Assembly: GCA_016935265.1 (NCBI GenBank)
Contig: JAFGRH010000002.1
Location: forward strand, 6,423 to 30,422
Reading direction: 5' to 3'
Source: Candidatus Woesearchaeota archaeon
GTDB lineage: Archaea > Nanobdellota > Nanobdellia > Woesearchaeales > UBA10216
DNA: 24,000 nucleotides
The position numbers and the translations under genes were made by a program. Under the pieces are notes generated by a model. That model did no database searches, was not told the DNA's origin, and saw only the letters and a program-made list of their open reading frames with translations. Shown piece by piece: positions 4,951-24,000 of the stretch (its first letter is position 1; each line of letters begins with the position of its first letter).

Positions 4951-6114
4951 TTATTTTTTGCCTTTAAGCGCCGCAAGCGCAGGAAGTTCTTTTCCTTCCA
5001 AGAATTCAAGCATTGCTCCGCCGCCTGTCGATACAAAAGTAAACTTTTCCTTAAGCCCTGCCCTTTCCATGGCTGCAATTGTATCTCCCCCGCCCAATAT
5101 CGTGGTTGCGCCTGAGAAGGTTATGGCTTTTCCAAGCTCAAAAGTCCCCTTTGAGAAAGGCTCAGACTCGAAAACGCCCATCGGCCCGTTCCAAAGTATT
5201 GTTTTAGCCGAGCTTATCTTTTCAGAGAAGATTTCCACTGTTTTAGGGCCTATGTCAAGCCCTTTTTTGTCCTTGGGCATGCTGTCAACACTTACAACTT
5301 CTGTTTCAGATGAATCTGCAGTTTCTGCAAAAACTGCATCCACAGGAAGGATAACTTCCTCGTTCAGAAGGCTGTTTGCAACCTCAAGCTTCTCGTTCTC
5401 GACAAGGCTTCTTCCAACTTCCTTTCCCTCTGACTTAAGGAAGGTGAACATCATCGCTCCTCCAATCAGCAGGTAATCTGCCTTTTCAGCGAGCTTTCGT
5501 ATCACACCTATCTTGTCTGATACTTTCGCGCCGCCAAGAACCGCGACAAAAGGCCTTTTAGCTTTATCAATAAGCTTCGAGAGCGTTTCCACTTCCTTTT
5601 GCAGGAGCAAGCCTGCGTAGCTGGGCAGAAATTTAGTGATTGCAACAACAGAGGCATTTGCCCTGTGGGATACGCCAAAAGCGTCATTTACATAGATTTC
5701 AGCGAGCTCTGCTAATTGCTTAGCAAAGCCCTCATCGTTAGCCTCCTCTTCAGAGTGGAAGCGGAGGTTTTCAAGCATAAGTATTTCCCCCTCGTTAAGG
5801 GATTCTGCAACTGCCTTTATTTCCCCACCAACGCAGTCATTGACCTTTTCAACATCCTTGTGCAGGAGCTCGGAAAGGTGCTCTGCAACAGCATCCAGCC
5901 TCATCTCAGGAACAGCTTTCCCTCTCGGCCTGCCGAGGTGCGACATTATTATTACCTTGGCGTGCCCCTCAAGAAGGTATTTTATTGTAGGCAGGGACTC
6001 CTTTAATCGGGTATCGTCAACAACCTTTTCCCCTTTCAAAGGGACGTTGTAGTCAAACCTTACAAGAACCCTTTTGCCCTTTACATCAGCGTCTTTCAGA
6101 AGAGGCAGCTCCAT
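4951..6114 (-). CDS. pgk: Phosphoglycerate kinase
   Basis: [26 protein letters not shown]...SHLGRPRGK...GGGDT...STGGGAMLEFLEGKELPALAAL. Start chosen at the ATG (6112-6114) that overlaps the gap TAA by 1 nt (TAATG). The ORF track extends 16 codons further, into gap. Confidence 0.93.
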   Translation of the reverse strand: MELPLLKDADVKGKRVLVRFDYNVPLKGEKVVDDTRLKESLPTIKYLLEGHAKVIIMSHLGRPRGKAVPEMRLDAVAEHLSELLHKDVEKVNDCVGGEIKAVAESLNEGEILMLENLRFHSEEEANDEGFAKQLAELAEIYVNDAFGVSHRANASVVAITKFLPSYAGLLLQKEVETLSKLIDKAKRPFVAVLGGAKVSDKIGVIRKLAEKADYLLIGGAMMFTFLKSEGKEVGRSLVENEKLEVANSLLNEEVILPVDAVFAETADSSETEVVSVDSMPKDKKGLDIGPKTVEIFSEKISSAKTILWNGPMGVFESEPFSKGTFELGKAITFSGATTILGGGDTIAAMERAGLKEKFTFVSTGGGAMLEFLEGKELPALAALKGKK

Positions 6115-8053: not shown

Positions 8054-8061
8054 TTTTTTTT
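8054..8061 (+). terminator. Oligo-T tract, a possible archaeal terminator for the upstream gene
   Basis: A run of 8 T lies 52 nt after the TAG of the 7256-8002 ORF. Archaeal termination commonly uses T runs. It sits directly against the carA start, so its role is uncertain. Confidence 0.25.
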
Positions 8062-8062
8062 G

Positions 8063-9124
8063 ATGAGTGCTAAACTTGTGCTTGAAGACAAGAGCGTTTT
8101 CTACGGGGCTTCATTTGGTGCTTCTCGTTCTGTAGCAGGAGAGGTAGTCTTCAATACAAGCATGGTTGGCTATCCTGAAGCAATGACTGATCCCTCTTAC
8201 AGGGGGCAGATATTAGTCCTTACTTATCCCTTAGTTGGCAACTACGGAGTTCCATCAGATGAAAAGGATGAGCTTGGCCTGCTAAAGAACTTTGAGTCAG
8301 ATAAGATACAGATAAGCGGCCTTATAATTTCTGATTATTCTTACAAGCACAGCCACTGGAGCTCTGTAAGGAGCCTTGCGGACTGGATGAAGAAGCAGAA
8401 TATTCCGGGAATTGCGGGCGTGGACACAAGGGCCCTCACTAAAAAGCTGCGCGAGAAGGGCGTTATGCTTGGCAAGATGGTGATAGAGGGGAAAATTGAT
8501 TTTGAAGACCCAAACAAAAGGAACCTTGCCGCAGAGGTTTCTGTAAGGGAAAAGGTTGTTTATAACGAGAGCGGAAAGAAAAAAGTAGTTCTTGTTGACT
8601 GCGGTGCAAAGAACAACATAATAAGGAGCCTTGCCCAGCGCGGATGCTGCGTCATACGAGTTCCCTGGGATTACAATTTTCTTGAGGAGGAGTTTGACGG
8701 CTTAATGGTAAGCAACGGACCAGGCGACCCGAAGATGTGCGATGCTGCGATAAAGAACGTTGCTGCCACGATGAAGAAGGGAATCCCTACTTTCGGCATA
8801 TGCCTGGGAAACCAGATAGTGGGGCTCGCCGCAGGGTGTGATACCTATAAGCTGAAGTACGGCCACCGCTCGCAGAACCAGCCCTGCACCGATATGGAAA
8901 CAAAAAGGTGCTACATCACTACGCAGAACCACGGATTTGCTGTTGACGCAAGAAAGATGCCTTCCGGCTGGGAGGAGTGGTTCAGGAACGAGAACGACGG
9001 CACAAATGAAGGGCTTAGGCACAAAACAAAGCCTTTCATGTCTGTCCAGTTCCATCCTGAAGCGACGCCAGGCCCTGTTGATACTGCATTCCTCTTTGAC
9101 AGGTTTGTGGGGATGATGAAATGA
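8063..9124 (+). CDS. carA: Carbamoyl-phosphate synthase small (glutamine amidotransferase) subunit
   Basis: VFNTSMVGYPEAMTDPSYRGQILVLTYPLVGNYG, nucleophile elbow GICLGNQ, HGFAV, and QFHPE (His/Glu of the triad). An alternative TTG start lies at 8060. Confidence 0.93.
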   Translation: MSAKLVLEDKSVFYGASFGASRSVAGEVVFNTSMVGYPEAMTDPSYRGQILVLTYPLVGNYGVPSDEKDELGLLKNFESDKIQISGLIISDYSYKHSHWSSVRSLADWMKKQNIPGIAGVDTRALTKKLREKGVMLGKMVIEGKIDFEDPNKRNLAAEVSVREKVVYNESGKKKVVLVDCGAKNNIIRSLAQRGCCVIRVPWDYNFLEEEFDGLMVSNGPGDPKMCDAAIKNVAATMKKGIPTFGICLGNQIVGLAAGCDTYKLKYGHRSQNQPCTDMETKRCYITTQNHGFAVDARKMPSGWEEWFRNENDGTNEGLRHKTKPFMSVQFHPEATPGPVDTAFLFDRFVGMMK

Positions 9125-9798
9125 TGAAAATAGGCCACCGCGGGGCTGCAGACCTTGAGCCTGAGAACACTCTGCTCGGAATAAAGAGAGCGATTGAGCT
9201 TGGCATGGATGCAGTGGAAGTCGATGTTCGCAAGACAAAGGACAACCACCTCGTTGTCATTCACGATGAAAAGGTTGACCGGACAACTGACGGAAAGGGC
9301 TATGTCTGCGAGATGACCCTTGAACAGATTCAGAAGCTGAAGTCAGGGAAAGGAGAAAGAATACCCACGATACAGCAAGTGATTGATGCGGTTAAGGGAA
9401 AATGCAAGCTCATCATCGAGCTTAAGGAGCACACGACAGAAATTGCAGTTGCTGAAATAATTAAGAAGAATAAGCTGGAGGAAGAATGCTACGTCATTTC
9501 TTTCCACCACCCGATTATAAGGATGATTAAGTCCTACTGCCCAGAACTTCATACAGGATTGCTTTTCGTGGGCGAGCCTGTTGAACCTGTGAAGGTGGCA
9601 GAAGAGGCAAATTCAGAAGCCCTATTCCCGAACTACAAGTTTTTAACCAACCAGATGACTTCAAAGCTGCACAACGCAGGGATGAAAATTTTTGTATGGA
9701 ACTGCGATACAAAAGAAGACATAGAATGCATGAAAAAGGCAGGCGTTGACGGCATAAGCAGCAACAGGCCTGATTTGCTGGCAGAGGTGCTTGGATGA
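9121..9798 (+). CDS. Glycerophosphodiester phosphodiesterase (GDPD family)
   Basis: MMKIGHRGAADLEPENTLLGIKRAIELGMDAVEVDVRKTKDNHLVVIHDEKVDRTTDG is the canonical GDPD N-terminal signature (HRG...ENT...E.DV...D...V.HD). Overlaps the carA stop (ATGA). Confidence 0.85.
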   Translation: MMKIGHRGAADLEPENTLLGIKRAIELGMDAVEVDVRKTKDNHLVVIHDEKVDRTTDGKGYVCEMTLEQIQKLKSGKGERIPTIQQVIDAVKGKCKLIIELKEHTTEIAVAEIIKKNKLEEECYVISFHHPIIRMIKSYCPELHTGLLFVGEPVEPVKVAEEANSEALFPNYKFLTNQMTSKLHNAGMKIFVWNCDTKEDIECMKKAGVDGISSNRPDLLAEVLG

Positions 9799-9810
9799 GA
9801 AATGTGAAAG

Positions 9811-10060
9811 AATTCCTGAAAAAACAAAAGATTTTCAGAGAATCCGCACTAGCCACTGGTCAGGCTCGGCTAGGACATATAAAACGGAAGTGTACTTATA
9901 ATTCTACGCTCGAGGCGCACGCAGACCGCCTAAATTATGGCTTTTGGTCTAACGACCAAAACCCATTTACGGCGGTCCGCTTAACGCGCCCCTCGCTCCG
10001 GAAGAGTGAGATTTCCAACATCCACTGTGGAAATCTCACATTAAATGAGTTTTCCGGAGA
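9811..10060 (+). ncRNA. Unclassified highly structured RNA region (a leader or ncRNA) upstream of the homing endonuclease core
   Basis: Perfect helices read directly from the sequence. H1: ctgaaaa 9816-9822 pairs with ttttcag 9832-9838. H2: ctagcc 9849-9854 pairs with ggctag 9868-9873. H3: cgaggcgc 9911-9918 pairs with gcgc(cc)cctcg 9986-9995, and encloses H4. H4: gaccgcc 9924-9930 pairs with ggcggtc 9971-9977, with an apical ttttggtc 9942-9949 paired to gaccaaaa 9954-9961 (loop taac). H5: ctccggaa 9996-10003 pairs with ttccggag 10052-10059, plus the 12-bp gtgagatttcca 10006-10017 paired to tggaaatctcac 10028-10039. The 3' strand of H5 contains the ggag that sits 8 nt before ATG 10068. TATA-like atataaaa (9877-9884) lies about 27 nt before H3. 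The stems are locally GC-rich and the Arg codons are CGN-rich, unlike neighbouring genes. Confidence 0.5.
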
Positions 10061-10067
10061 AAGAAAA

Positions 10068-11027
10068 ATGGAAACAAAGTTTGAAGTGCACTTTTGGAAC
10101 TTATCTAATAGAGCAAGATATCACCTAGGTGCTTCTTTCTTAAAAAGGCTCTTTGACAACGCCGGAGCCGGGGATTTGCGCCAGCTGGCAAAACATATAG
10201 GTGTTTCTTATCCTTACATCTCACCATTAGTTAGGGGAGTTTACAGCATACCTACAAACCTTCTTGTAAAGCTTGCTGAAAAAGCAAATATCGGATTAGA
10301 AGAGGTTGAAAAAAACATAGTTGCTGTCAGGACTAGACACGGAAAGGTTTGTAGATTGAAATTTCCGATATTACCATCTGCTTCAATGGCTTCTTTGATA
10401 GGGCATGTGTTTGGCGATGGTTACATTGGAAACAAGAAAAGGCAATTTGAGTATTGTAACGACAATCCTAATCTATTAGCAGAGGTAAAGAAGCATTTAA
10501 GGGTTGCTTTTGGATTAGAACCGATGACAGAAAGGGCGAATAGAATAGGCTACTCATCTATTGTTGGAGAAATATTGGTAGCGTTTGGCTCTCACGTTGC
10601 GCCTAAAGTAAAATCAGAGAAACAGATACCTGAATGGATTAAATCAGGACCGAAAGAATACAAAGCTTCGTTCTTAAAGGCGCTTTTTGATGATGACGGC
10701 TCGGTCCTCTATTCCGAAGGTTACAATGCTAAAGGGGTCAACTTTTATCAGATAAGGGAGAAGAATATTCTACAAAAATCCCACCAGCTCCTTGACGAAA
10801 TAAAACAATTGCTGCAGGAATTTGAAATTTTCCCGGGAGAACCGCATTTGAGAAAAACCTATTTTAGCCATGGCGAAGAGCATGCAATCAGCTATATCAA
10901 TATCACAAATTACAAGAGCATTTTAAATTTCTACTCAAAGATAGGTTTGGCCGACGGAGATAAGAATAATCGGCTTAAAAAGATTGTAGCAAGAAGAATT
11001 CACAATAATCTAGGAGGTAACTTATGA
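10068..11027 (+). CDS. Free-standing double-motif LAGLIDADG homing endonuclease with an N-terminal HTH domain
   Basis: Motif 1 is SLIGHVFGDGYIG and motif 2 is ASFLKALFDDDGSV, about 100 aa apart, which is the monomeric two-domain architecture; the acidic catalytic residues are retained. An HTH-like LRQLAKHIGVSYPYISPLVRGVYSIPTNLLVKLAE lies upstream of them. The same frame stays open back to ATG 9795 (an ATGA overlap with GDPD), so a 410-aa form is possible. The stop TGA 11025-11027 overlaps the carB ATG. Confidence 0.8.
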   Translation: METKFEVHFWNLSNRARYHLGASFLKRLFDNAGAGDLRQLAKHIGVSYPYISPLVRGVYSIPTNLLVKLAEKANIGLEEVEKNIVAVRTRHGKVCRLKFPILPSASMASLIGHVFGDGYIGNKKRQFEYCNDNPNLLAEVKKHLRVAFGLEPMTERANRIGYSSIVGEILVAFGSHVAPKVKSEKQIPEWIKSGPKEYKASFLKALFDDDGSVLYSEGYNAKGVNFYQIREKNILQKSHQLLDEIKQLLQEFEIFPGEPHLRKTYFSHGEEHAISYINITNYKSILNFYSKIGLADGDKNNRLKKIVARRIHNNLGGNL

Positions 11028-14000
11028 AAGAAAAGCCACACAAAGTTTTAGTGCTAGGCAGTGGGGCTCTTAAAATCGGAGAGGCCGGCGAGAGTGCCTA
11101 AAAGCACCGCCATTTCGACTACTCCGGTTCACAAGCCCTGAAAGCGCTTAAGGAAGAAGGCATAAAGACAGTCCTGATTAACCCTAACATTGCTACTATT
11201 CAGACTGACAAGAGGTTTGCTGACAGCATTTACTTCCTGCCTGTCAATGCAGACTTTGCAACTAAAGTGATTGCTAAGGAAAAGCCTGACGGCATCCTGC
11301 TCAGCTTCGGCGGGCAGACAGCGCTGAACTGCGGCGTTGAGCTGGAGAGGCGGGGTGTTTTGAAGAAATACGGCGTAAAAGTTCTTGGAACGCCTGTCGA
11401 AACGATAAGGAATACTGAGGACAGGCAGCTTTTTGTTGATAAGCTTAACGAGATAAACAAGAAGACCCCGAGAAGCTTTGCTGTGAAGACAGTTTCGGAT
11501 GCTGTAAAAGCTGCCAAAAAGCTCGGCTTCCCAATAATCATAAGGTGCGCTTTCTCGCTTGGCGGGCAGGGCTCGAACATCTGCTACGAAGAGGAATCTT
11601 TGAAGAAAAGCGCTGCAATAGCGCTGTCGAACACTCCCCAGATTCTTGTTGAGGAATACCTTGGAGGCTGGAAGGAAGTTGAGTATGAAGTTGTGCGAGA
11701 TTCCTATGACAACTGCATTACTGTCTGCAACATGGAGAACTTTGACCCGCTCGGCATACACACAGGAGAGAGCATAGTTGTTGCTCCATCGCAAACACTC
11801 ACCAATCATGAATACCACAAGCTCAGGGAAATCTCAATCGCTGTTATAAAGCACCTAGGGATTATTGGGGAGTGCAACATACAGTTCGCCCTTGACCCAA
11901 AGAGCGATGATTACAGGATTATAGAGGTAAATGCCCGCCTTTCCAGAAGCTCTGCCTTGGCGAGCAAGGCTACAGGCTACCCTCTTGCTTTTGTAGCTGC
12001 AAAGCTTGCGCTGGGATACTCCCTGCCTGAGCTAAGGAACTCGATAACAAAGTCAACAACTGCCTGCTTCGAGCCTGCGTTGGATTACATCGTTGTTAAG
12101 ATTCCGAGATGGGACCTTAAGAAGTTCAAGAACGTCTCAAAGCTCATAGGCACAGGGATGAAAAGCGTTGGCGAGGTAATGGCAATAGGCAGAAATTTTG
12201 AGGAGTCATTCCAGAAAGCCCTGAGGATGCTTGACATAGGAATGTACGGGCTTGCAGCTAACAACATGGAGTTCAGCGACCTTGACAGCGAGCTGAAAAA
12301 CCCCACGGATGAGCGGGTTTTCGCAATAGCAGAGGCTTTCAGAAAAGGCTATACTGTTGAAAAGGTGAATGCCTTCTCGAGGATAGATTGCTGGTATTTA
12401 GAAAAGATGAAGGGAATAATGGACATTGAAAAAGAGATTCGCGGAAAGCTCAGCCCTGAAGTTCTCCTGAGGGCAAAGAAGGCGGGCTTTTCAGACAAGC
12501 AGATATCCCTTCTGCAGGACAAGCCTGAGCTAGAGATAAGGAAGTACAGGAAGGAAAACAGGATAATGCCTGTTGTCAAGCAGATAGACACCCTTGCCGC
12601 AGAATACCCTGCGAAGACGAATTACCTCTATATGACTTACAACGGCATTGAGAATGACATAGAGTTCAGCAACAAAAAAACTGTCATAGTGCTCGGCTCA
12701 GGGGCTTACCGAATCGGCAGCTCAGTAGAGTTTGACTGGTGCTGCGTAAACGCTGTTTTTACACTAAGAAAGCTGGGCTACAACACCATAATGATAAATT
12801 ACAATCCGGAAACGGTCTCGACTGACTATGACGAGTGCGACAGGCTTTACTTTGACGAGCTTTCCTTCGAAAACGTTGCTGACATCTATGACAGGGAAAA
12901 GCCTGAGGGTGTGATAATATCGATGGGCGGGCAGATTCCGAACAACATTGCGATGAAGCTTAGGAATTACGGCTGCAGGATATTCGGCACAAAGCCTGAA
13001 AGCATAGACAACGCGGAAGACAGGTACAAGTTCTCAAGCCTCCTTGACAGGCTAGGCGTTGAGCAGCCTGAGTGGAGGGAATTGAAAAGCGCAAAGGAGG
13101 CAAAGGAATTTGCGCAGAAGGCAGGCTATCCTGTCCTTGTCAGGCCCTCTTACGTGCTCAGCGGCGCTGCCATGAGCGTCGCAACAAATGACGATGAGCT
13201 TCAGGAATACCTAACTAAAGCCTCAAAGGTGAACCAGGAGTATCCTGTTGTGATAAGCAAGTTCATAACCAACGCGAGGGAAATTGAGATTGATGCTGTG
13301 GCTAATAACGGCAAGCTTGTTGTGTGGGCTGTTACAGAACACCTCGAGAACGCAGGGGTGCATTCAGGCGATGCAACAATGGTTCTTCCGCCTCAGAAGA
13401 CCTACCTCGAAACCATTAGGAGAATTGAAAAGACAGCAAGGGTTATAGCACATTCGCTCAAGATAACAGGACCTTTCAACATACAGTTCCTAGCGAAGGA
13501 GGGATTCATCAAGGTTATAGAGTGCAACCTCCGCGCGTCAAGAAGCTTTCCTTTTGTTTCCAAGGTCCTTAAGACAAACTTCATAGAGCTGGCTGTAAAA
13601 ATGATAATGGGCAGGAGTGTCTCAGAGGAAGTTGCAAGCCAGCGAACATTCGCAACGCTTGACTACGTGGGGGTTAAGGCTCCGCAGTTCTCATTCTCAA
13701 GGCTCACAGGCGCAGACCCGATAGTTACTGTTGAGATGTCGTCAACAGGGGAAGTTGCTTGTTTGGGTGAGGACGCTGAGGAAGCCCTGCTGAAGTCAAT
13801 GCTTGCCACGGGATTCAGGTTTCCGAAGAAAAGGGTGCTTTTGAGCATTGGGGGCAATGAGAACAAGGTTAGGATGCTCGAAACCGCAAGGGTGCTGAAG
13901 AAGCTCGGGCTTGAGATATGCGCAACTGAGAAAACCTCAAAGTTCCTTGAGCAGGAAGGCATAGGCAACACCCTGCTTAACAAGATTGGAGAGAGGAAAA

Positions 14001-14227
14001 AGCCTAACATATATGACTATCTTACTGGCAAGAAGATTGACCTTGTCATAAACATCCCTATAGGCATGAGCTGGCGTGAGAGGCAGGACGGCTACATAAT
14101 AAGAAGGGCTGCTGCTGACTTCAGCATACCGCTTATAACAAACGCGCAACTCGCCAAATCAGTTGTAAACGCAATAGCCATGAAAAAGCACAAGGACCTC
14201 CAGATAAAGTCGTGGGAGGAATATTAG
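11024..14227 (+). CDS. carB: Carbamoyl-phosphate synthase large subunit, interrupted by a 21-nt insert carrying an in-frame TAA; proposed mature CDS join(11024..11092,11114..14227), 1060 aa
   Basis: Strong SD aggaggt (11012-11018) lies 5 nt before ATG 11024. The protein reads MKEKPHKVLVLGSGALKIGEAGE, then [SA*KHRH], then FDYSGSQALKALKEEGIKTVLINPNIATIQTD...GGQTALNCG. Two ATP-grasp halves are present (EVNARLSRSSALASKATGYPLA and ECNLRASRSFPFVSK) plus a C-terminal MGS-like domain. The ORF track only reports the part from internal Met 11267. All 1037 codons downstream of the insert are intact. Confidence 0.9.
11093..11113 (+). other. Candidate bulge-helix-bulge (relaxed BHB) mini-intron in the carB mRNA
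   Basis: The 21 nt are agtgcctaaaagcaccgccat. Central 4-bp helix: ggcg 11087-11090 pairs with cgcc 11108-11111. Unpaired aga lies at 11091-11093. Helix gtgc 11094-11097 pairs with gcac 11104-11107 and closes the loop ctaaaa, which holds the TAA. Unpaired att lies at 11112-11114. Cuts after the second nt of each 3-nt element remove exactly these 21 nt and recreate GAG|TTC (E-F). Confidence 0.4.
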
Positions 14228-20748: not shown

Positions 20749-22062
20749 ATGGCTAAAAACGTGGTGGTTGTCGGAGCCTATTGGGGTGATGAGGGCAAGG
20801 GCAAGATAGTTGATTTCTTATCCGGCGATGTTGAGTTTGTTGCGAGGTTTAACGGCGGGGATAATGCGGGCCATACGATAACTATTGAGGGCAAAGAGTA
20901 CAAGGTACACCTTATCCCTTCAGGCGTTTTCCAGGGGAAGAAGGTTGCAATCGGACCGGGAGTTCTCGTTAATCCTGAAACGCTCTGCAATGAGTATGAT
21001 TATCTTGAGGAAGCTGGATTCAAGCCAAAGCTTTCAATTGACGCACGCGCCAATGTTATAATGCCTTACCACATTGAGATTGACAAGGCAAGGGAAGGCT
21101 CCGGAAAGGGTGTTGGCAGCACAAAGAAGGGCATCGGGCCTTGCATGGAGGATGCCGCAAGGAGGACAACAGCCATAATAATAGATGACCTTGTAAGTGA
21201 TGCGTTAAGGCCGAGGCTGAAAAAGGTTATTTCGCTTAAAGAGGATGAGCTGAGGAAGTATGATATTCTGAGCAATGGAATTGACGAATATGTTGAAGAG
21301 ATTGCAGTCTCTTACGAGAAATTCGGGAAGAAGATTAAGGGATTTGTTACTGACGAGCTTACATACACGCTTACAGAAGCATCGATGAAAGGCGGCGTGC
21401 TTGTTGAGGGCGGGCAGGGAACGCTGCTTGACTTAATGCACGGCACAAAGCCTTACCAGACATCTACAATAACTACGGCAGAGGCTGCTTTCGCAACTCT
21501 TGGTCTGGATGGAAGGCTTTTCAAAAGAGTTCTCGTTGCTAAGGCTTACCCGACAAGGGTCGGGGATGGACCTTTCCCGACAAAGATTGAGGGAGAGCTC
21601 GCAAAGCAGATAAGGGACAAGGGGAATGAGTACGGAACGACAACAGGCCGCCCAAGGGATGTAGGCATGCCTGACTTTGTCGCGCTGAGATATTCTGCCC
21701 ATATTAACGGGCTTTCAAGGGATGACGGCTGGGCGCTTACTTTGGTTGATGTTCTTGCTGGCATTCCTTTCAAGATAGCAGTGGCTTACGAAAAAGATGG
21801 AAAGAGAACGACTTTCCCTGCAAGGCTTGACGGCTGGAAGCCTGTCTATGAGGAAGCAGAGGGCTGGCCTGAAATTAGCAAGGATGAAGCGAAGGCAATC
21901 TGCAGCAAAGGCTATGAAGCGCTGCCTGAAGGAGTTAAGGGCTACTGCAAAAGGCTTGTCGGGTTCACAGGCGTTCCTTTAGAGATTGTATCGCTCGGCA
22001 AGGACCGCTCACTTACGCTGGTAAAGGGTGTCCGTGAAAGGACATTGGAGTACCTAAAATGA
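20749..22062 (+). CDS. purA: Adenylosuccinate synthetase
   Basis: MAKNVVVVGAYWGDEGKGKIVD, GGDNAGHTI, and GTTTGRPRD. The ORF track's TTG at 20725 falls in the promoter block, so ATG 20749 is preferred. Confidence 0.93.
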   Translation: MAKNVVVVGAYWGDEGKGKIVDFLSGDVEFVARFNGGDNAGHTITIEGKEYKVHLIPSGVFQGKKVAIGPGVLVNPETLCNEYDYLEEAGFKPKLSIDARANVIMPYHIEIDKAREGSGKGVGSTKKGIGPCMEDAARRTTAIIIDDLVSDALRPRLKKVISLKEDELRKYDILSNGIDEYVEEIAVSYEKFGKKIKGFVTDELTYTLTEASMKGGVLVEGGQGTLLDLMHGTKPYQTSTITTAEAAFATLGLDGRLFKRVLVAKAYPTRVGDGPFPTKIEGELAKQIRDKGNEYGTTTGRPRDVGMPDFVALRYSAHINGLSRDDGWALTLVDVLAGIPFKIAVAYEKDGKRTTFPARLDGWKPVYEEAEGWPEISKDEAKAICSKGYEALPEGVKGYCKRLVGFTGVPLEIVSLGKDRSLTLVKGVRERTLEYLK

Positions 22063-22757
22063 AAGTCGATGACCTTGTTAAGGTTAACCGCGCGATAATA
22101 AGCGCTTACGACAAGAAAGGGCTTGCTGACTTTGCAGAATCTCTCGTTAAGCTTAACCCAGAACTGGAAATTTACAGCAGCAGCGGCACTGCCGCAGAGC
22201 TTCAGAAGAAGGTTATGAAGAACATCAAGGAAATATCAGACTACACGAAGTTCCCTGAGATGCCCTCTGGTCTGGTTAAGACGCTTCATCCGAAAATACA
22301 CGCAGGCATACTCGCAGAGCCGGGCAACGGGGAGCACTCAGCCTATCTTCAGATGCACGGCATAAAGCAATTCGACATGATTGTTGTTAACTTGTATCCT
22401 TTTTCCGCAGTTGCCTCTGACCCGATGAAGACGGTTGAGGACGCAAGGCAGAATATGGACATAGGCGGCGTTTCGCTTATAGAGGCTGCCTCGAAGAACT
22501 TTTTGAGGGTGGCTGTAATCACAGACCCAGGAGATTACGGGTGGGTCATAGCTAACCTGAAAAAGAACAAAGGCTCTGCTGACCTGAAGACTCGAGTCAC
22601 TCTCGCAAAAAAGGCCCTGAAGTATCTTAGCAATTATCTCGGCAGCATTTCTGCCTATTACGAGAAAAAGCCTGATAACGATATCCAAAAATTCTACGGC
22701 GTTGAGAAGCATGAGTGGGCAGAAAGACTACAAGAAAGACTACGCAAGGATAGTTGA
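22059..22757 (+). CDS. purH: IMP cyclohydrolase (MGS-like N-terminal domain of PurH) as a stand-alone ORF
   Basis: RAIISAYDKKGL...SSGTAAEL...ISDYTKFPEMPSGLVKTLHPKIHAGILA...FDMIVVNLYPF...DIGGVSLIEAASKNF. ATGA overlap with purA. Confidence 0.8.
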   Translation: MKVDDLVKVNRAIISAYDKKGLADFAESLVKLNPELEIYSSSGTAAELQKKVMKNIKEISDYTKFPEMPSGLVKTLHPKIHAGILAEPGNGEHSAYLQMHGIKQFDMIVVNLYPFSAVASDPMKTVEDARQNMDIGGVSLIEAASKNFLRVAVITDPGDYGWVIANLKKNKGSADLKTRVTLAKKALKYLSNYLGSISAYYEKKPDNDIQKFYGVEKHEWAERLQERLRKDS

Positions 22758-24000
22758 CGAGCACTTTCCTGATGAGCTCAGAATATCCTTGGGCGAGCAG
22801 ACACTGCTCTACAAAAAGAGGAACTGGAGCATACCTGAAAAGGGCGAGATTGTAAAGCGGGGGCTGAGGTACGGCGAAAACCCTGGTCAGGAGGCTGCAA
22901 TTTATGAACTAGTCCAGGGCAACCTTGTCATAGGCGAATGCTCTTACATCACGCCTGGCAACGGTCTTGTAAGCTCGGTCTCAGAAAAGGACCTCATACA
23001 GATTGGAAAGCACCCAAGCATGAATAACCTCACCGATGTTGACAGCGCCCTGAACATACTTAAGTTCTTCCCTGAAAAGCCTACAGTGGTTATTGTGAAG
23101 CACAGCAACCCTTCAGGCGTTGCGCAGCGCGAAACTCTTAAGGAAGCTTACATAGAGGCAAACCTTGCGGACAGGCTCGCCGCTTTCGGCGGGGCGGCTG
23201 TTTTCAACAGGAAGCTTGACCGCGAGACCGCTGAGGAAATAATCAAAAACTACCTTGAGGTTGTCTGCGCGCCTGAGTTTGATGAAAAGGCGCTTGAAAT
23301 AATGAAGACAAAGAAGAACCTCAGGATAATACTCATCAGGAACATAAAGAACCTTGAAAGATACCAGAATATGCGTTTTCTGGACTTCAAATCAATGACT
23401 GACGGCGGGATTGTAGTCCAGCAGTCGCCAATATTGACAATCACCAGCAAGAATGACCTTGAGCCTGCAACCGCAACAAAGGAGGAGAGGGACTACAAAA
23501 TAGAAAGGGCCCCTACAGAGCAGGAGTATGAGGACATGATTTTCGGCTGGAAAGTGGAATATGGCGTGAAGTCAAACTCAGTAATATACGTAAAGAACAA
23601 AGCCACTGTTGCCATTGGGACTGGCGGGCAGGACAGGGTAGGCGTTGCTGAGATGGCTGCTGCAAAGGCATACACGAAGTATGCGGACAGGATTTGCGCA
23701 GAAAAGCAAGGCATGCCATACTGGGTTTTCTCAATGAAAGTAAAGAAGGGAGAGATTGCAGAGAGTGAAAAGAAAAAGATTGATGATGAGGTAGAGAGGC
23801 AAAAAGGCAACCTGAAAGGGTCAGTGATGGTTTCTGACGGATTCTTCCCGTTCCGCGATACTGTTGATGTTGCTGCAAAGTACGGAGTTACGGCAATAAT
23901 ACAGCCGGGCGGCTCGATAAGGGACTTTGAGAGCATTGAAGCCTGCAACGAGCACGGCATATCAATGGTCTTCACAGGGCAGCGTGCTTTCAAGCACTAG
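22711..24000 (+). CDS. purH: AICAR formyltransferase (C-terminal domain of PurH) as a separate ORF in the +1 frame
   Basis: FPDELRISL...LRYGENPGQEAAIY...VIVKHSNPSGVA...AFGGAAVFN...VSDGFFPFRDTVDVAAKYGVTAIIQPGGSIRD...RAFKH then stop. Overlaps the preceding ORF by 47 nt. An alternative TTG start lies at 22702. Confidence 0.85.
   Translation: MSGQKDYKKDYARIVDEHFPDELRISLGEQTLLYKKRNWSIPEKGEIVKRGLRYGENPGQEAAIYELVQGNLVIGECSYITPGNGLVSSVSEKDLIQIGKHPSMNNLTDVDSALNILKFFPEKPTVVIVKHSNPSGVAQRETLKEAYIEANLADRLAAFGGAAVFNRKLDRETAEEIIKNYLEVVCAPEFDEKALEIMKTKKNLRIILIRNIKNLERYQNMRFLDFKSMTDGGIVVQQSPILTITSKNDLEPATATKEERDYKIERAPTEQEYEDMIFGWKVEYGVKSNSVIYVKNKATVAIGTGGQDRVGVAEMAAAKAYTKYADRICAEKQGMPYWVFSMKVKKGEIAESEKKKIDDEVERQKGNLKGSVMVSDGFFPFRDTVDVAAKYGVTAIIQPGGSIRDFESIEACNEHGISMVFTGQRAFKH

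What the first reader, a model, noticed from the sequence alone, without database searches (positions are those of the whole stretch)
9795..11113. Free-standing LAGLIDADG endonuclease abutting the interrupted carB: possible collaborative homing of an endonuclease and an ORF-less intron
A two-motif LAGLIDADG enzyme with intact catalytic Asp residues is wedged into the carA...carB operon. Its TGA overlaps the carB ATG, and the carB SD (aggaggt) lies inside its 3' end. The 21-nt insert interrupts one of the most conserved DNA stretches of carB only 66 nt downstream. Highly conserved coding sequence is the typical target of a homing endonuclease, and a LAGLIDADG site (about 20 bp) spanning ggcgag|ttcgac would be destroyed by the insert. 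This mirrors the arrangement described for the phage and cyanophage free-standing endonucleases (the mobE type, and F-CphI with the psbA intron). In those cases the endonuclease cuts intron-less alleles and the neighbouring ORF-less intron provides self-immunity, so the two elements move together. An archaeal version using a BHB intron rather than a group I intron has not, to my knowledge, been described.
Basis: inference. Interest (0 to 1): 0.7.

Follow-up and report, generated by a model that had tools for sequence, protein, structure and literature searches.

The report
Homing endonuclease beside carB mini-intron
An essential archaeal gene (carB) is interrupted by a 21-base intron of the tRNA-splicing type, and right in front of it sits a selfish DNA-cutting enzyme gene that comparative data show has spread between genomes together with that intron; this would be only the second protein-coding sequence known to carry such introns.

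Summary
The window is from a Woesearchaeota (DPANN) genome. carB (ATG 11024) carries a 21-nt insert (11093-11113) with an in-frame TAA. The 410-aa ORF at 9795-11027 is an HTH plus two-domain LAGLIDADG endonuclease whose TGA overlaps the carB ATG.

The insert is a relaxed bulge-helix-bulge (BHB) intron. I found 72 distinct versions at the same codon boundary in Woesearchaeota and Nitrososphaeria. They are 16-40 nt long with no 3n bias, and none can be read through. All share a fixed 4-bp helix, a 3-nt bulge and a covarying hairpin. The canonical cut rule restores GE|FDYSG. Relatives have two further mini-intron sites that obey the same rule.

The endonuclease lies directly upstream of carB in all 13 lineages with DNA, always with the intron. 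It is absent from a related intron-bearing genome as a clean 1.2-kb indel. Four lineages keep a remnant of an older carB 5' end upstream of it.

Between two HEG-bearing genomes, nucleotide identity by segment is:
- carA: 73%
- cassette: 90%
- carB exon 1, intron and next 84 nt: 98%
- rest of carB: 76%

So endonuclease and intron have travelled together. At least 59 intron-bearing loci lack the endonuclease. Cleavage specificity and intron-conferred immunity remain untested.

The parts
9121..9798 (+). Upstream neighbour: glycerophosphodiester phosphodiesterase gene. Its TGA overlaps the ATG of the endonuclease ORF (ATGA at 9795-9798).
   Evidence: Pfam GDPD E 4.5e-45; sequence. Upstream neighbours differ among relatives: NUDIX, MazG, HAD, a 101-aa ORF, or carA itself.
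9795..11027 (+). Long ORF (410 aa) of the free-standing HTH-LAGLIDADG homing endonuclease. NCBI annotated only the 319-aa form starting at 10068.
   Evidence: The frame upstream of the conserved core is open in 13/13 lineages, while the other two frames hold 2-13 stops each. A conserved N-terminal peptide T-G-H-W-T..Y-[IL]-K is seen in most lineages; it is degenerate here (ATGQARLGHIKRK).
9795..10067 (+). N-terminal extension or leader of the endonuclease ORF. It is translated-through but its amino-acid sequence is unconstrained.
   Evidence: Substitutions in the extension are evenly spread over codon positions (11/8/11; synonymous 6, non-synonymous 17). In the core they are 16/11/64 (synonymous 57, non-synonymous 25). 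AlphaFold pLDDT is below 50 for residues 1-88. No Pfam hit.
9853..9862 (+). Conserved motif CCACTGGWCA near the 5' boundary of the cassette.
   Evidence: Found in 10 of the 12 HEG-bearing loci scanned; invariant columns in A2.
9912..9992 (+). Long conserved RNA hairpin inside the leader.
   Evidence: Window fold z -7.07. RNAalifold and pair counts on 7 lineages: 92.9% of cells paired against 31-49% when slid, 15 pairs with compensatory changes, 0/500 shuffles reach the observed values. Coordinates mapped. No Rfam match.
9998..10057 (+). Second conserved hairpin. Its basal helix pairs with the GG of the internal Shine-Dalgarno GGAG (10055-10058) that precedes ATG 10068.
   Evidence: helices 3-5. 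Compensatory variants: CCGGAA/UUCCGG (window), CAGAAC/GUUCUG (L001, L169), CCAGAA/UUCUGG (L004), seen.
10131..10313 (+). Five-helix Cro/C1-type HTH domain of the endonuclease.
   Evidence: Pfam HTH_3 E 3e-4. PDB sequence hit to a Cro-like protein. AF2 helices at residues 113-173. Foldseek hit to C.AhdI.
10380..10421 (+). LAGLIDADG motif 1 (MASLIGHVFGDG) with catalytic D208 (10416-10418).
   Evidence: Invariant G207 D208 G209; helix 196-206 in the model.
10653..10706 (+). LAGLIDADG motif 2 (FLKALFDDDGSV) with D300/D301 (10692-10697).
   Evidence: Invariant D300 and G302; D299 and D301 at least 90% conserved. Pfam LAGLIDADG_3. The fold matches intein endonuclease domains and I-Tsp061I.
11012..11018 (+). 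Shine-Dalgarno AGGAGGT for carB, located inside the 3' end of the endonuclease ORF.
   Evidence: Sequence. Relatives have an equivalent GGAGG at the same place.
11024..11092 (+). carB exon 1 (23 codons, MKEKPHKVLVLGSGALKIGEAGE). In relatives this segment is the replacement 5' end carried at the 3' end of the cassette.
   Evidence: Duplicate older carB 5' ends lie upstream of the cassette in L211, L208, P0002 and P0003.
11087..11090 (+). Exon strand (GGCG) of the 4-bp central helix H of the BHB motif. It pairs with 11108-11111 (CGCC).
   Evidence: H forms 4/4 pairs in every true carB intron. The free third position always pairs (C-G 67, U-G 4, U-A 1). The Gly wobble is Y in 72/72 intron-bearing alleles, against T30/C22/A18/G7 in 77 intron-less alleles.
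11091..11093 (+). 3-nt bulge AG|A holding the predicted 5' splice site (cut after 11092).
   Evidence: The bulge is AAA, AGA, AAT or AGT in 72/72 introns. The canonical BHB cut after bulge nucleotide 2 coincides with the exon boundary required by the protein.
11093..11113 (+). 21-nt mini-intron (site 2, GE|FDYSG). Layout: A + h' hairpin GUGC-CUAAAA-GCAC (11094-11107) + H3' CGCC (11108-11111) + AU (11112-11113). The predicted 3' splice site is after 11113.
   Evidence: There are 72 distinct homologous introns. h' pairs 1-4 are canonical in 72/72, 72/72, 69/72 and 67/69, against 8-82% in slid registers. 67 have an in-frame stop and 5 shift the frame.
11114..14227 (+). carB exon 2 (1037 codons plus stop), intact.
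   Evidence: Exon-2 ORFs of 1020-1100 aa in loci long enough to hold them.

Best explanation
Two linked elements sit at the 5' end of carB.

(1) The mini-intron. The 21-nt insert is an archaeal splicing-endonuclease intron of the relaxed BHB (HBh') type. In the pre-mRNA, exon GGCG pairs with intron CGCC to form the 4-bp central helix. The 5' cut falls after the second nucleotide of the AGA bulge. A short hairpin (h') follows. The 3' cut falls two nucleotides after the helix strand. Ligation, presumably by RtcB, restores ...IGEAGE|FDYSG.... Without splicing no CarB can be made.

(2) The endonuclease cassette. Directly upstream is a mobile cassette encoding an HTH-LAGLIDADG homing endonuclease. 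The cassette has inserted into the very 5' end of carB. The endonuclease ORF is fused to, or translationally coupled with, whatever start lies upstream: the old carB start in some relatives, the GDPD stop/start overlap here. The 3' end of the cassette supplies a new Shine-Dalgarno, a new start codon and the first ~23 codons of carB. The host gene is therefore rebuilt rather than spliced.

(3) The link between them. The cassette, carB exon 1, the mini-intron and about 84 nt of exon 2 have been transferred between genomes as one conversion tract. The most likely mechanism is inferred, not shown. The enzyme cuts cassette-less, intron-less carB alleles within the roughly 30-bp GSGALKIGEAGE|FDYSG coding stretch. 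Repair then copies cassette and intron together. The intron (or introns) interrupting that stretch in the resident functional copy protects it from self-cleavage.

The intron is older and much more widespread than the endonuclease and does not need it.
For: Intron:
- Same position, 72 distinct sequences, 16-40 nt, length mod 3 = 31/29/12, none readable.
- Covarying h' hairpin and H helix, with slid-register controls.
- The exon wobble base is constrained only in intron-bearing alleles.
- Two further sites obey the same cut rule and give the consensus residue. Site 1 does so in 10/10 loci. Site 3 is in L212.
- Intron-bearing carB ORFs are otherwise intact.
- Hosts are archaea: Woesearchaeota and Nitrososphaeria. 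These groups have splicing endonucleases linked to relaxed motifs and disrupted tRNA genes (PMC5829648).
- The size and relaxed motif match the cbf5 intron (PMC2738675).

Endonuclease:
- Pfam matches, conserved active-site residues and fold.
- Purifying selection on the core.
- Always directly upstream of carB.
- Clean 1224-bp indel relative to L164.
- Remnant carB 5' ends upstream of the cassette.

Co-mobility (L004 versus L169):
- carA 73.3%, cassette 89.9%, carB nt 0-168 including the intron 98.2%, carB nt 169-1500 75.7% (p 2e-15).
- The breakpoint at +169 is abrupt.
- The HEG-less control L164 shows 85.7% versus 79.1%.
- Endonuclease and carB divergence are uncorrelated.
- Intron-less Woesearchaeota alleles, the potential targets, exist.
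- No locus has the endonuclease without the intron (0 of 13 lineages).
Against: - No RNA data: splicing is inferred.
- The outer helix h of a strict BHB is missing. The relaxed motif carries little information; a permissive scan finds dozens of chance matches in 400 nt.
- EndA and RtcB of this genome are not in the window.
- The intron occurs without the endonuclease in roughly 59 or more loci with adequate flank, including a different phylum. Immunity cannot be its general reason for existing.
- The intron-bearing loci were found with an intron-specific pattern, so the intron's frequency is not estimated without bias.
- Remnant ends lie 15-24 nt upstream of site 2. A 22-bp site centred there would not reach the intron.
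- The high-identity tract could reflect gene conversion that needed no endonuclease.
- No recognisable remnant is left in the window itself.
Confidence: 0.6

Rival explanations
1. The two elements are independent neighbours. The endonuclease is a free-standing homing element whose target lies at the carB start or the upstream junction. The cassette insertion itself, or base differences, give immunity. The mini-intron is an older, vertically inherited feature of carB that merely lies inside the conversion tract and plays no part in immunity.
For: - The intron is present in roughly 59 or more endonuclease-free loci, including Nitrososphaeria.
- Intron hairpin types track carB lineages.
- Remnant ends (GSGA| or LKI|) lie 15-24 nt upstream of site 2.
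- Any marker within about 170 nt of the cassette would be co-converted.
Against: - In window-type alleles the functional carB copy is uninterrupted from its start to site 2. A target lying wholly upstream of site 2 would be present intact in the endonuclease's own genome.
- 0 of 13 endonuclease lineages lack an intron in this stretch, although intron-less Woesearchaeota alleles exist.
- Two separate intron sites bracket the same 24-nt stretch.
Confidence: 0.3
2. The protein is a domesticated HTH-LAGLIDADG DNA-binding protein, like WhiA. It regulates the carA-carB/pyrimidine operon and is not a nuclease.
For: - Foldseek hits include WhiA (8dy9_I, 3hyj).
- It has an extra HTH domain.
- It occupies a constant position in a pyrimidine biosynthesis cluster.
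- It is under purifying selection.
Against: - The catalytic Asp of both motifs is invariant.
- It is patchy among related genomes, with a clean 1.2-kb indel.
- Its upstream context varies, and duplicated carB 5' remnants are typical of insertion.
- The cassette is much more similar between genomes than the flanking housekeeping genes.
- Only about 32 homologues were found among 5.8 billion protein clusters.
Confidence: 0.05
3. The insert is not removed from the RNA. carB would then be a pseudogene, the insert an assembly artefact, or the ribosome bypasses it or reads through the stop.
For: - NCBI left carB uncalled in L004, L207 and L208.
- L207 carries an additional in-frame TAG in exon 2.
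- There are no RNA data.
Against: - 72 distinct inserts at one codon boundary come from independent assemblies. Their structure is conserved and the 1030-1060-aa downstream ORFs are intact.
- Lengths are mostly not multiples of 3, so read-through cannot work.
- There are no matching take-off and landing codons for bypassing (GAG versus CAT, TTA or TAA).
Confidence: 0.03

Closest known systems
cbf5 pre-mRNA intron of Crenarchaeota (Watanabe 2002; Yokobori 2009, PMC2738675)
   Same: - A short ORF-less intron (16-44 nt there, 16-40 nt here) inside a protein-coding sequence.
- A relaxed BHB cleavage motif.
- Patchy distribution pointing to gain and loss.
- Hosts whose splicing endonucleases have, or are associated with, broad substrate range.
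   Different: - A different gene (carB) and different phyla (Woesearchaeota/DPANN and Nitrososphaeria).
- Up to three sites in one gene.
- Here a homing endonuclease gene is physically and evolutionarily linked to the intron. The cbf5 authors noted that their intron is too short to encode a nuclease and found no correlation between its variants and those of the homing-endonuclease-bearing rRNA introns.
- As of 2020, cbf5 was the only mRNA BHB intron reported before that study added the HVO_1309 5'-UTR case (PMC7714728).
Collaborative (trans) homing: cyanophage F-CphI with the psbA group I intron, and T4 mobE with the I-TevIII intron (PMC6083498, PMC2790892)
   Same: - A free-standing endonuclease gene lies next to an ORF-less intron in a highly conserved coding stretch.
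- Endonuclease and intron are co-inherited in one conversion tract.
- The intron occurs without the endonuclease, but the endonuclease is not seen without the intron.
   Different: - A cellular archaeal chromosome, not a phage.
- A LAGLIDADG enzyme, not an Endo VII-type or HNH enzyme.
- A protein-dependent BHB mini-intron, not a self-splicing group I intron.
- The cassette also rebuilds the 5' end of the target gene.
- Cleavage at the intron insertion site has not been demonstrated here.
Archaeal rRNA-intron LAGLIDADG endonucleases (I-DmoI, I-Tsp061I, I-PorI) and intein endonuclease domains (PI-SceI, TliVMA)
   Same: - A two-domain monomeric LAGLIDADG fold. The best structural matches are 7qsu, 1um2 and 2dch.
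- Archaeal hosts.
- An association with BHB introns.
   Different: - It is encoded neither inside the intron nor inside an intein.
- It has an N-terminal Cro-like HTH and an unstructured leader that contains a conserved RNA structure.
- Sequence similarity to solved structures is marginal: E about 0.08 for the single sequence, and no hit with the family profile.
Integrative elements that carry a replacement copy of the gene end they disrupt (for example tRNA-gene-targeting integrative elements). This comparison rests on my own knowledge.
   Same: Insertion into a gene is made harmless by supplying a new copy of the displaced end. A decaying remnant is left on the other side.
   Different: Here the mover is a homing endonuclease using homologous repair, not an integrase. 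The duplicated part is a 5' coding end with its own Shine-Dalgarno and start. The old start appears to be reused to translate the endonuclease.

Membership tests
Archaeal BHB (splicing-endonuclease) introns | A central helix of exactly 4 bp between exon and intron strands | tested here: met
   GGCG/CGCC in the window. 4/4 pairs in all true carB site-2 introns. The free position covaries: C-G, U-G, U-A.
Archaeal BHB (splicing-endonuclease) introns | A 3-nt bulge 3' of each central-helix strand, cut after the second nucleotide; the resulting exon junction must be functional | tested here: met
   The 5' bulge is A[AG][AT] in 72/72 introns. Cuts after bulge nucleotide 2, and 2 nt after H3', give exactly GE|FDYSG. 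At site 1 the same rule gives GSGA-L/I-KIGEAGE in 10/10 loci. At site 3 it gives NIAT|IQT.
Archaeal BHB (splicing-endonuclease) introns | Outer helices h and h' flanking both bulges (strict hBHBh') | tested here: not met
   h' is present and covaries. No helix h abuts the 3' bulge. The nearest exon-exon pairing (CGGAG/CUCCG) lies across a 5x10 internal loop. The motif is therefore the relaxed HBh' form, as in cbf5 and many non-canonical tRNA introns.
Archaeal BHB (splicing-endonuclease) introns | The host encodes EndA and an RtcB-type ligase, and the RNA is spliced in vivo | not testable with these tools
   These genes are not in the 24-kb window and no transcript data are available. The hosts are archaea (TFS/RpoM-like gene at 783-1100; taxon names).
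LAGLIDADG homing endonucleases | Two LAGLIDADG motifs, each ending in a catalytic acidic residue, in a pseudo-dimeric alpha-beta-beta-alpha-beta-beta-alpha fold | tested here: met
   D208 and D300/D301 are conserved. The AF2 model has pLDDT above 90 for residues 92-404. Foldseek E 3.6e-9 to 1e-6 against intein and intron LAGLIDADG enzymes.
LAGLIDADG homing endonucleases | A fixed genomic site with presence/absence polymorphism and evidence of horizontal spread | tested here: met
   Always directly upstream of carB (13 lineages). L164 lacks it cleanly. The cassette is 85-90% identical between genomes, against 73-76% for flanking carA.
LAGLIDADG homing endonucleases | Site-specific double-strand cleavage of the empty allele | not testable with these tools
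   This needs the purified protein and carB substrates.
Collaborative homing pair (free-standing endonuclease plus ORF-less intron) | The endonuclease gene is adjacent to, not inside, the intron, and both are co-converted | tested here: met
   The intron starts 66 nt after the endonuclease stop. The high-identity tract covers the cassette, exon 1, the intron and 84 nt of exon 2.
Collaborative homing pair (free-standing endonuclease plus ORF-less intron) | The enzyme cuts intron-less alleles at or near the intron insertion site, and the intron disrupts the site | not tested
   Only indirect evidence: 0 of 13 endonuclease lineages lack the intron, remnant ends lie 15-24 nt from site 2, and intron-less Woesearchaeota alleles exist.
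WhiA-like domesticated LAGLIDADG regulators | Loss of the catalytic acidic residues and uniform vertical conservation in a clade | tested here: not met
   The catalytic Asp residues are invariant. Distribution is patchy, with insertion scars.
Group I intron with a LAGLIDADG ORF | A group I ribozyme core detectable with covariance models | tested here: not met
   No Rfam hit at gathering score or at E up to 10 in 9700-11250. The conserved RNA consists of two hairpins inside an open reading frame.
Programmed translational bypassing (T4 gene 60 type) | Matching take-off and landing codons flanking the gap | tested here: not met
   GAG before the insert; CAT, TTA or TAA before exon 2.

The most novel reading that the evidence does not exclude
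A new kind of homing element in archaeal chromosomes. A LAGLIDADG endonuclease cassette is made harmless not by being spliced out but by replacing the 5' end of its target gene, and it takes over the old start site for its own translation. It drives the horizontal spread of BHB mini-introns, which in turn act as immunity by breaking its recognition site. This would be the first mechanism for mobility and gain of BHB introns in protein-coding genes. It would also explain why two or three mini-introns cluster in one ~30-bp, ultra-conserved stretch of carB.
Probability: 0.35. Interest if true: 0.85.

Novelty: new variant of a known kind. Interest (0 to 1): 0.8.

Why it matters
- Rarity of such introns. 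Introns cut by the tRNA-splicing endonuclease have been reported in only one coding sequence (cbf5, 2002) and in one 5' UTR (PMC7714728). A second gene family would change that picture. carB has up to three such sites and dozens of variants in two phyla, including abundant soil ammonia oxidisers.
- Annotation. These genes are currently truncated or flagged as pseudogenes, as in L004, L207 and L208.
- An open question becomes testable. How BHB introns are gained is unresolved. Here an intron travels in the same conversion tract as a homing endonuclease. The idea can be tested with one protein, two DNA substrates and one RT-PCR.
- A new cassette design. Rebuilding the 5' end of the target gene instead of splicing is a strategy not described for homing endonucleases, as far as I could find.

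Tried and rejected
1. Rfam at gathering score and at E up to 10 found no known RNA family for the structured region or the insert. ARAGORN found no tRNA.
2. I first mis-assigned BHB polarity and judged the motif 'mirrored'. Re-deriving the geometry from the canonical 37/38 tRNA intron showed that the observed layout is the canonical one. In that intron the 7-nt anticodon loop splits as 4 helix nt, 2 bulge nt and 1 bulge nt.
3. Bypassing and read-through were rejected: codons do not match and lengths are not multiples of 3.
4. The whole cassette as one large BHB intron from the upstream remnant was rejected. The duplicated exon strands are identical, not complementary, and GEAGE would be lost.
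5. The genome-contig scan with spliced CarB returned only uninterrupted, mostly Bacteroidota genes. It was useless for intron frequency but served as an intron-less control.
6. DNA for the two closest relatives (P0002, P0003) could not be fetched.
7. A PDB profile search found nothing. One viral-contig scan found no relative.
8. A permissive BHB-rule scanner gave dozens of chance hits, so the motif alone is not evidence.
9. The purH split at 22702-22757 was inspected by eye for a mini-intron. I saw no convincing compact hairpin.
10. The unknown 212-aa ORF upstream of carB in L159 is not a detectable endonuclease.

Full report
WHAT IS IN THE WINDOW

The window comes from a Candidatus Woesearchaeota (DPANN) genome. 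The 319-aa endonuclease is 100% identical to NCBI protein JXB11_00100. A TFS/RpoM-type zinc-ribbon gene lies at 783-1100. The region is a pyrimidine/purine biosynthesis cluster. It holds carA (8060-9124), a GDPD gene (9121-9798), the 410-aa ORF (9795-11027) and carB. Downstream are a dihydroorotate dehydrogenase gene and its electron-transfer subunit, an amidohydrolase (dihydroorotase-type), phosphoribosyltransferases, an OMP decarboxylase gene, an adenylosuccinate synthetase gene and an AICARFT/IMPCHase (PurH-type) gene.

- The endonuclease TGA (11025-11027) overlaps the carB ATG (11024-11026).
- AGGAGGT lies at 11012-11018.
- A 21-nt insert (11093-11113, agtgcctaaaagcaccgccat) with an in-frame TAA splits ...LKIGEAGE from FDYSGSQA....

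THE INSERT IS A BHB-TYPE INTRON

In the window the exon bases GGCG (11087-11090) pair with CGCC (11108-11111). Between them lie a 3-nt bulge AGA and a hairpin GUGC-CUAAAA-GCAC.

The canonical archaeal motif can be derived from the 37/38 tRNA intron (established knowledge: Marck and Grosjean 2003; Xue et al. 2006). The exon strand of the 4-bp helix is followed by a 3-nt bulge cut after its second base. The intron strand of the helix is followed by a second bulge cut after its second base. Applied here, this predicts cuts after 11092 and after 11113. That is exactly the 21 nt whose removal the protein requires. The outer helix next to the 3' site is missing, so the motif is the relaxed HBh' form.

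On one sequence this would be weak. The local fold has z -2.65, and a permissive motif scan finds dozens of chance matches. The weight comes from comparison.

A degenerate pattern for an insert at this codon boundary hit the window and all loci then in hand that carry the endonuclease. It hit none of 80 uninterrupted carB loci. Together with loci reached through endonuclease homologues, this gives 72 distinct inserts:
- Lengths are 16-40 nt, with length mod 3 = 31/29/12.
- 67 contain an in-frame stop and the other 5 shift the frame.
- The first four hairpin pairs are canonical in 72/72, 72/72, 69/72 and 67/69 cases, with 3-6 pair types each. Slid registers give 8-82%.
- The unconstrained position of the central helix always pairs (C-G 67, U-G 4, U-A 1).
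- The exon Gly wobble base is C or T in all 72. In 77 intron-less alleles it is T30/C22/A18/G7.
- Downstream carB ORFs are intact at 1020-1100 aa wherever the contig is long enough.

Two further insert sites appear in relatives. Site 1 lies between GSGA and [L/I]KIGEAGE, 24 nt upstream of site 2. In 10/10 loci the register with the best BHB geometry gives the consensus Leu or Ile through a split codon. Site 3 is in L212 (4602-4622). It has a perfect UGCG/CGCA helix and an ACA bulge, and the cut rule gives NIAT|IQT.

The hosts fall into two groups. One has a Woesearchaeota-type carB, 67-74% identical to the window. The other is Nitrososphaeria, 52-61% identical, with the names Nitrososphaeraceae, Nitrosocosmicus and Nitrososphaera among the closest proteins. 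Both groups also have intron-less alleles.

The literature I could search knows only cbf5 in Crenarchaeota as a coding-region BHB intron. That intron is 16-44 nt with a relaxed motif. There is also one 5'-UTR case in Haloferax. I found nothing on carB.

THE ENDONUCLEASE

From residue 92 onward the protein is confidently modelled (pLDDT above 90). It has a five-helix Cro-like HTH followed by a two-domain LAGLIDADG core. The best structural matches are intein endonuclease domains (TliVMA, PI-SceI), the archaeal intron enzyme I-Tsp061I, and WhiA. Both catalytic Asp positions are invariant in 17 homologues.

The core evolves under purifying selection. Between L004 and L169, differences at codon positions 1/2/3 are 16/11/64, with 57 synonymous and 25 non-synonymous codon changes.

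Only about 32 homologues exist among 5.8 billion protein clusters, and one viral-contig scan found none in viral contigs. Every one of the 13 lineages with retrievable DNA has the gene immediately upstream of the carB start. So does the P0002 contig, known only from its gene table. The upstream neighbours differ: GDPD, NUDIX, MazG, HAD, a 101-aa ORF, or carA itself.

THE CASSETTE IS AN INSERTION INTO THE 5' END OF carB

L164 is a relative of L004 and L169, about 79% identical in nucleotides. It has carA, a stop, one base and then the carB ATG, with the intron but no endonuclease. Relative to L164, L169 carries a clean 1224-bp insertion.

In L211 the first ~31 nt of the L164 carB match twice. 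One match is just after carA (MKQEDKIVKPKKVLVLGSGS-SQK*). The other is after the endonuclease, as the functional start. L208 has MKKNIKKVLILGSGVLKI-AGK* upstream of the cassette. In P0002 and P0003 the endonuclease ORF itself begins with M..PKKVL[LV]LGSGA(LKI).

So the cassette sits inside an older carB 5' end and brings a new Shine-Dalgarno, a new start and the first ~23 codons. The endonuclease ORF is fused to, or overlaps by ATGA, whatever start lies upstream. The remnants end at GSGA| or LKI|, 15-24 nt before site 2 and at or next to site 1.

ENDONUCLEASE AND INTRON HAVE MOVED TOGETHER

Nucleotide identity between L004 and L169, by segment:
- carA: 73.3%
- cassette: 89.9%
- first 168 nt of carB (exon 1, intron, 84 nt of exon 2): 98.2%
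- following 1.3 kb of carB: 75.7% (Fisher p 2e-15)

The mismatch map shows 5 differences between -50 and +168. From +169 on there is a difference every few bases. The pairs L004-L211 and L169-L211 show the same pattern: 92-93% against 76-78%. The endonuclease-free control L164 shows only the mild rise expected from protein conservation (85.7% against 79.1%). Endonuclease and carB divergence are uncorrelated across 11 lineages (Spearman 0.13).

This is the signature of homing with exon co-conversion. The tract contains the intron.

WHAT REMAINS INFERENCE

I could not test that the enzyme cuts intron-less carB in the GSGALKIGEAGE|FDYSG stretch, or that the intron protects the resident copy.

For it:
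- No endonuclease lineage lacks the intron (0 of 13), although intron-less Woesearchaeota alleles exist.
- In window-type genomes the functional copy is uninterrupted from its start to site 2. An active enzyme that targets this region must therefore recognise something the intron breaks.
- Two intron sites bracket the same 24 nt.

Against it:
- The intron is present in many endonuclease-free genomes. Of the HEG-negative pattern loci, 62 have at least 1.5 kb of upstream flank, and about 59 of those are true carB loci. They include another phylum, so immunity is not its general reason for existing.
- My intron-bearing sample is biased by the search pattern.
- A 22-bp site centred on the remnant ends would stop short of site 2. 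The extra HTH domain could lengthen the site, as the DNA-recognition region does in PI-SceI (my own knowledge).

THE LEADER RNA

The first 91 codons of the long ORF (9795-10067) fold very strongly (z -7.07). In seven lineages two hairpins (window 9912-9992 and 9998-10057) are conserved. 92.9% of cells are paired against 31-49% when slid. 15 of 43 pairs carry compensatory changes, and 0/500 shuffles reach these values. The base of the second hairpin pairs with the GG of an internal GGAG that precedes ATG 10068.

Yet the frame is open in 13/13 lineages, while the amino-acid sequence drifts freely (11/8/11; synonymous 6, non-synonymous 17). AlphaFold sees no structure there.

My reading is that the endonuclease is translated by ribosomes arriving from the upstream gene or remnant, through a leader whose RNA structure, not its peptide, is selected. 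The structure perhaps keeps the internal start closed. Its function is unexplained. It matches no Rfam family, and some lineages lack it (L097, L209).

VERDICT

The intron, the endonuclease and their co-mobility are well supported. The target site and the immunity role are plausible but untested.

Relative to known systems, the intron is a new member of the cbf5 kind. The endonuclease-plus-BHB-intron pairing, with gene-end replacement, is a new variant of collaborative homing.

Noticed in passing
window 9912-10057: Two covarying RNA hairpins lie inside the open but amino-acid-unconstrained leader of the endonuclease ORF. The second sequesters part of the internal SD before ATG 10068. No Rfam family matches, and lineages L097 and L209 lack the structure. 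Function unknown.
   Followed up: partly
L006 4253-4285; L208 about 5371-5399; L212, L213, L128, L159, L139, L174, L199, L201 (site 1); L212 4602-4622 (site 3): Additional BHB-type mini-introns of 14-33 nt occur in carB of relatives. Site 1 is GSGA|[L/I]KIG and site 3 is NIAT|IQT. Both split a codon and obey the same cut rule. The window itself has only site 2.
   Followed up: yes
window 11024-14227 versus L007-L086: This Woesearchaeota carB is 71-77% identical in protein to Bacteroidota, Ignavibacteriota and KSB1 carB, but only 52-61% identical to Nitrososphaeria carB. This suggests inter-domain transfer of carB. The same intron site would then have been occupied in two unrelated carB lineages.
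   Followed up: partly
window 22059-22757 and 22702-24000: The purH-like gene is split into two overlapping ORFs in different frames. The first covers MGS plus AICARFT profile positions 1-66; the second covers AICARFT positions 76-311. A tandem 12-nt repeat lies at about 22728-22751. By eye I saw no convincing BHB hairpin. It could be a gene fission, a frameshift or an assembly error.
   Followed up: partly
L207 about 5380-5390: carB exon 2 in L207 has an in-frame TAG where relatives have Glu (QTS*GMAD against QTSEGMAD). This copy may be a true pseudogene or may carry a sequencing error.
   Followed up: no
site-2 introns of all loci: 67 of 72 distinct introns carry an in-frame stop, usually UAA or UGA in the hairpin loop. 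This is more than I would expect from length alone. It may reflect selection to abort translation of unspliced mRNA, or simply A-rich loops.
   Followed up: no
L001 2140-2156; L211 2683-2700; L004 6013-6030: The conserved motif at the cassette's 5' boundary is a tandem 7-mer (CACTGGA-CACTGGA or CCACTAA-CCACTGG). It encodes the peptide T-G-H-W-T. It is unclear whether it matters as DNA, RNA or peptide.
   Followed up: no
L201 4846-6540: A long ORF downstream of carB gives a weak match to the endonuclease family profile (E 1.2e-4). It may be an intein-containing or other LAGLIDADG protein.
   Followed up: no
L004, L207, L208 (NCBI records): carB is left uncalled in these deposited MAG annotations, and in other loci it is called from a downstream start. 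Mini-introns therefore make an essential gene look absent or truncated in metabolic reconstructions.
   Followed up: partly
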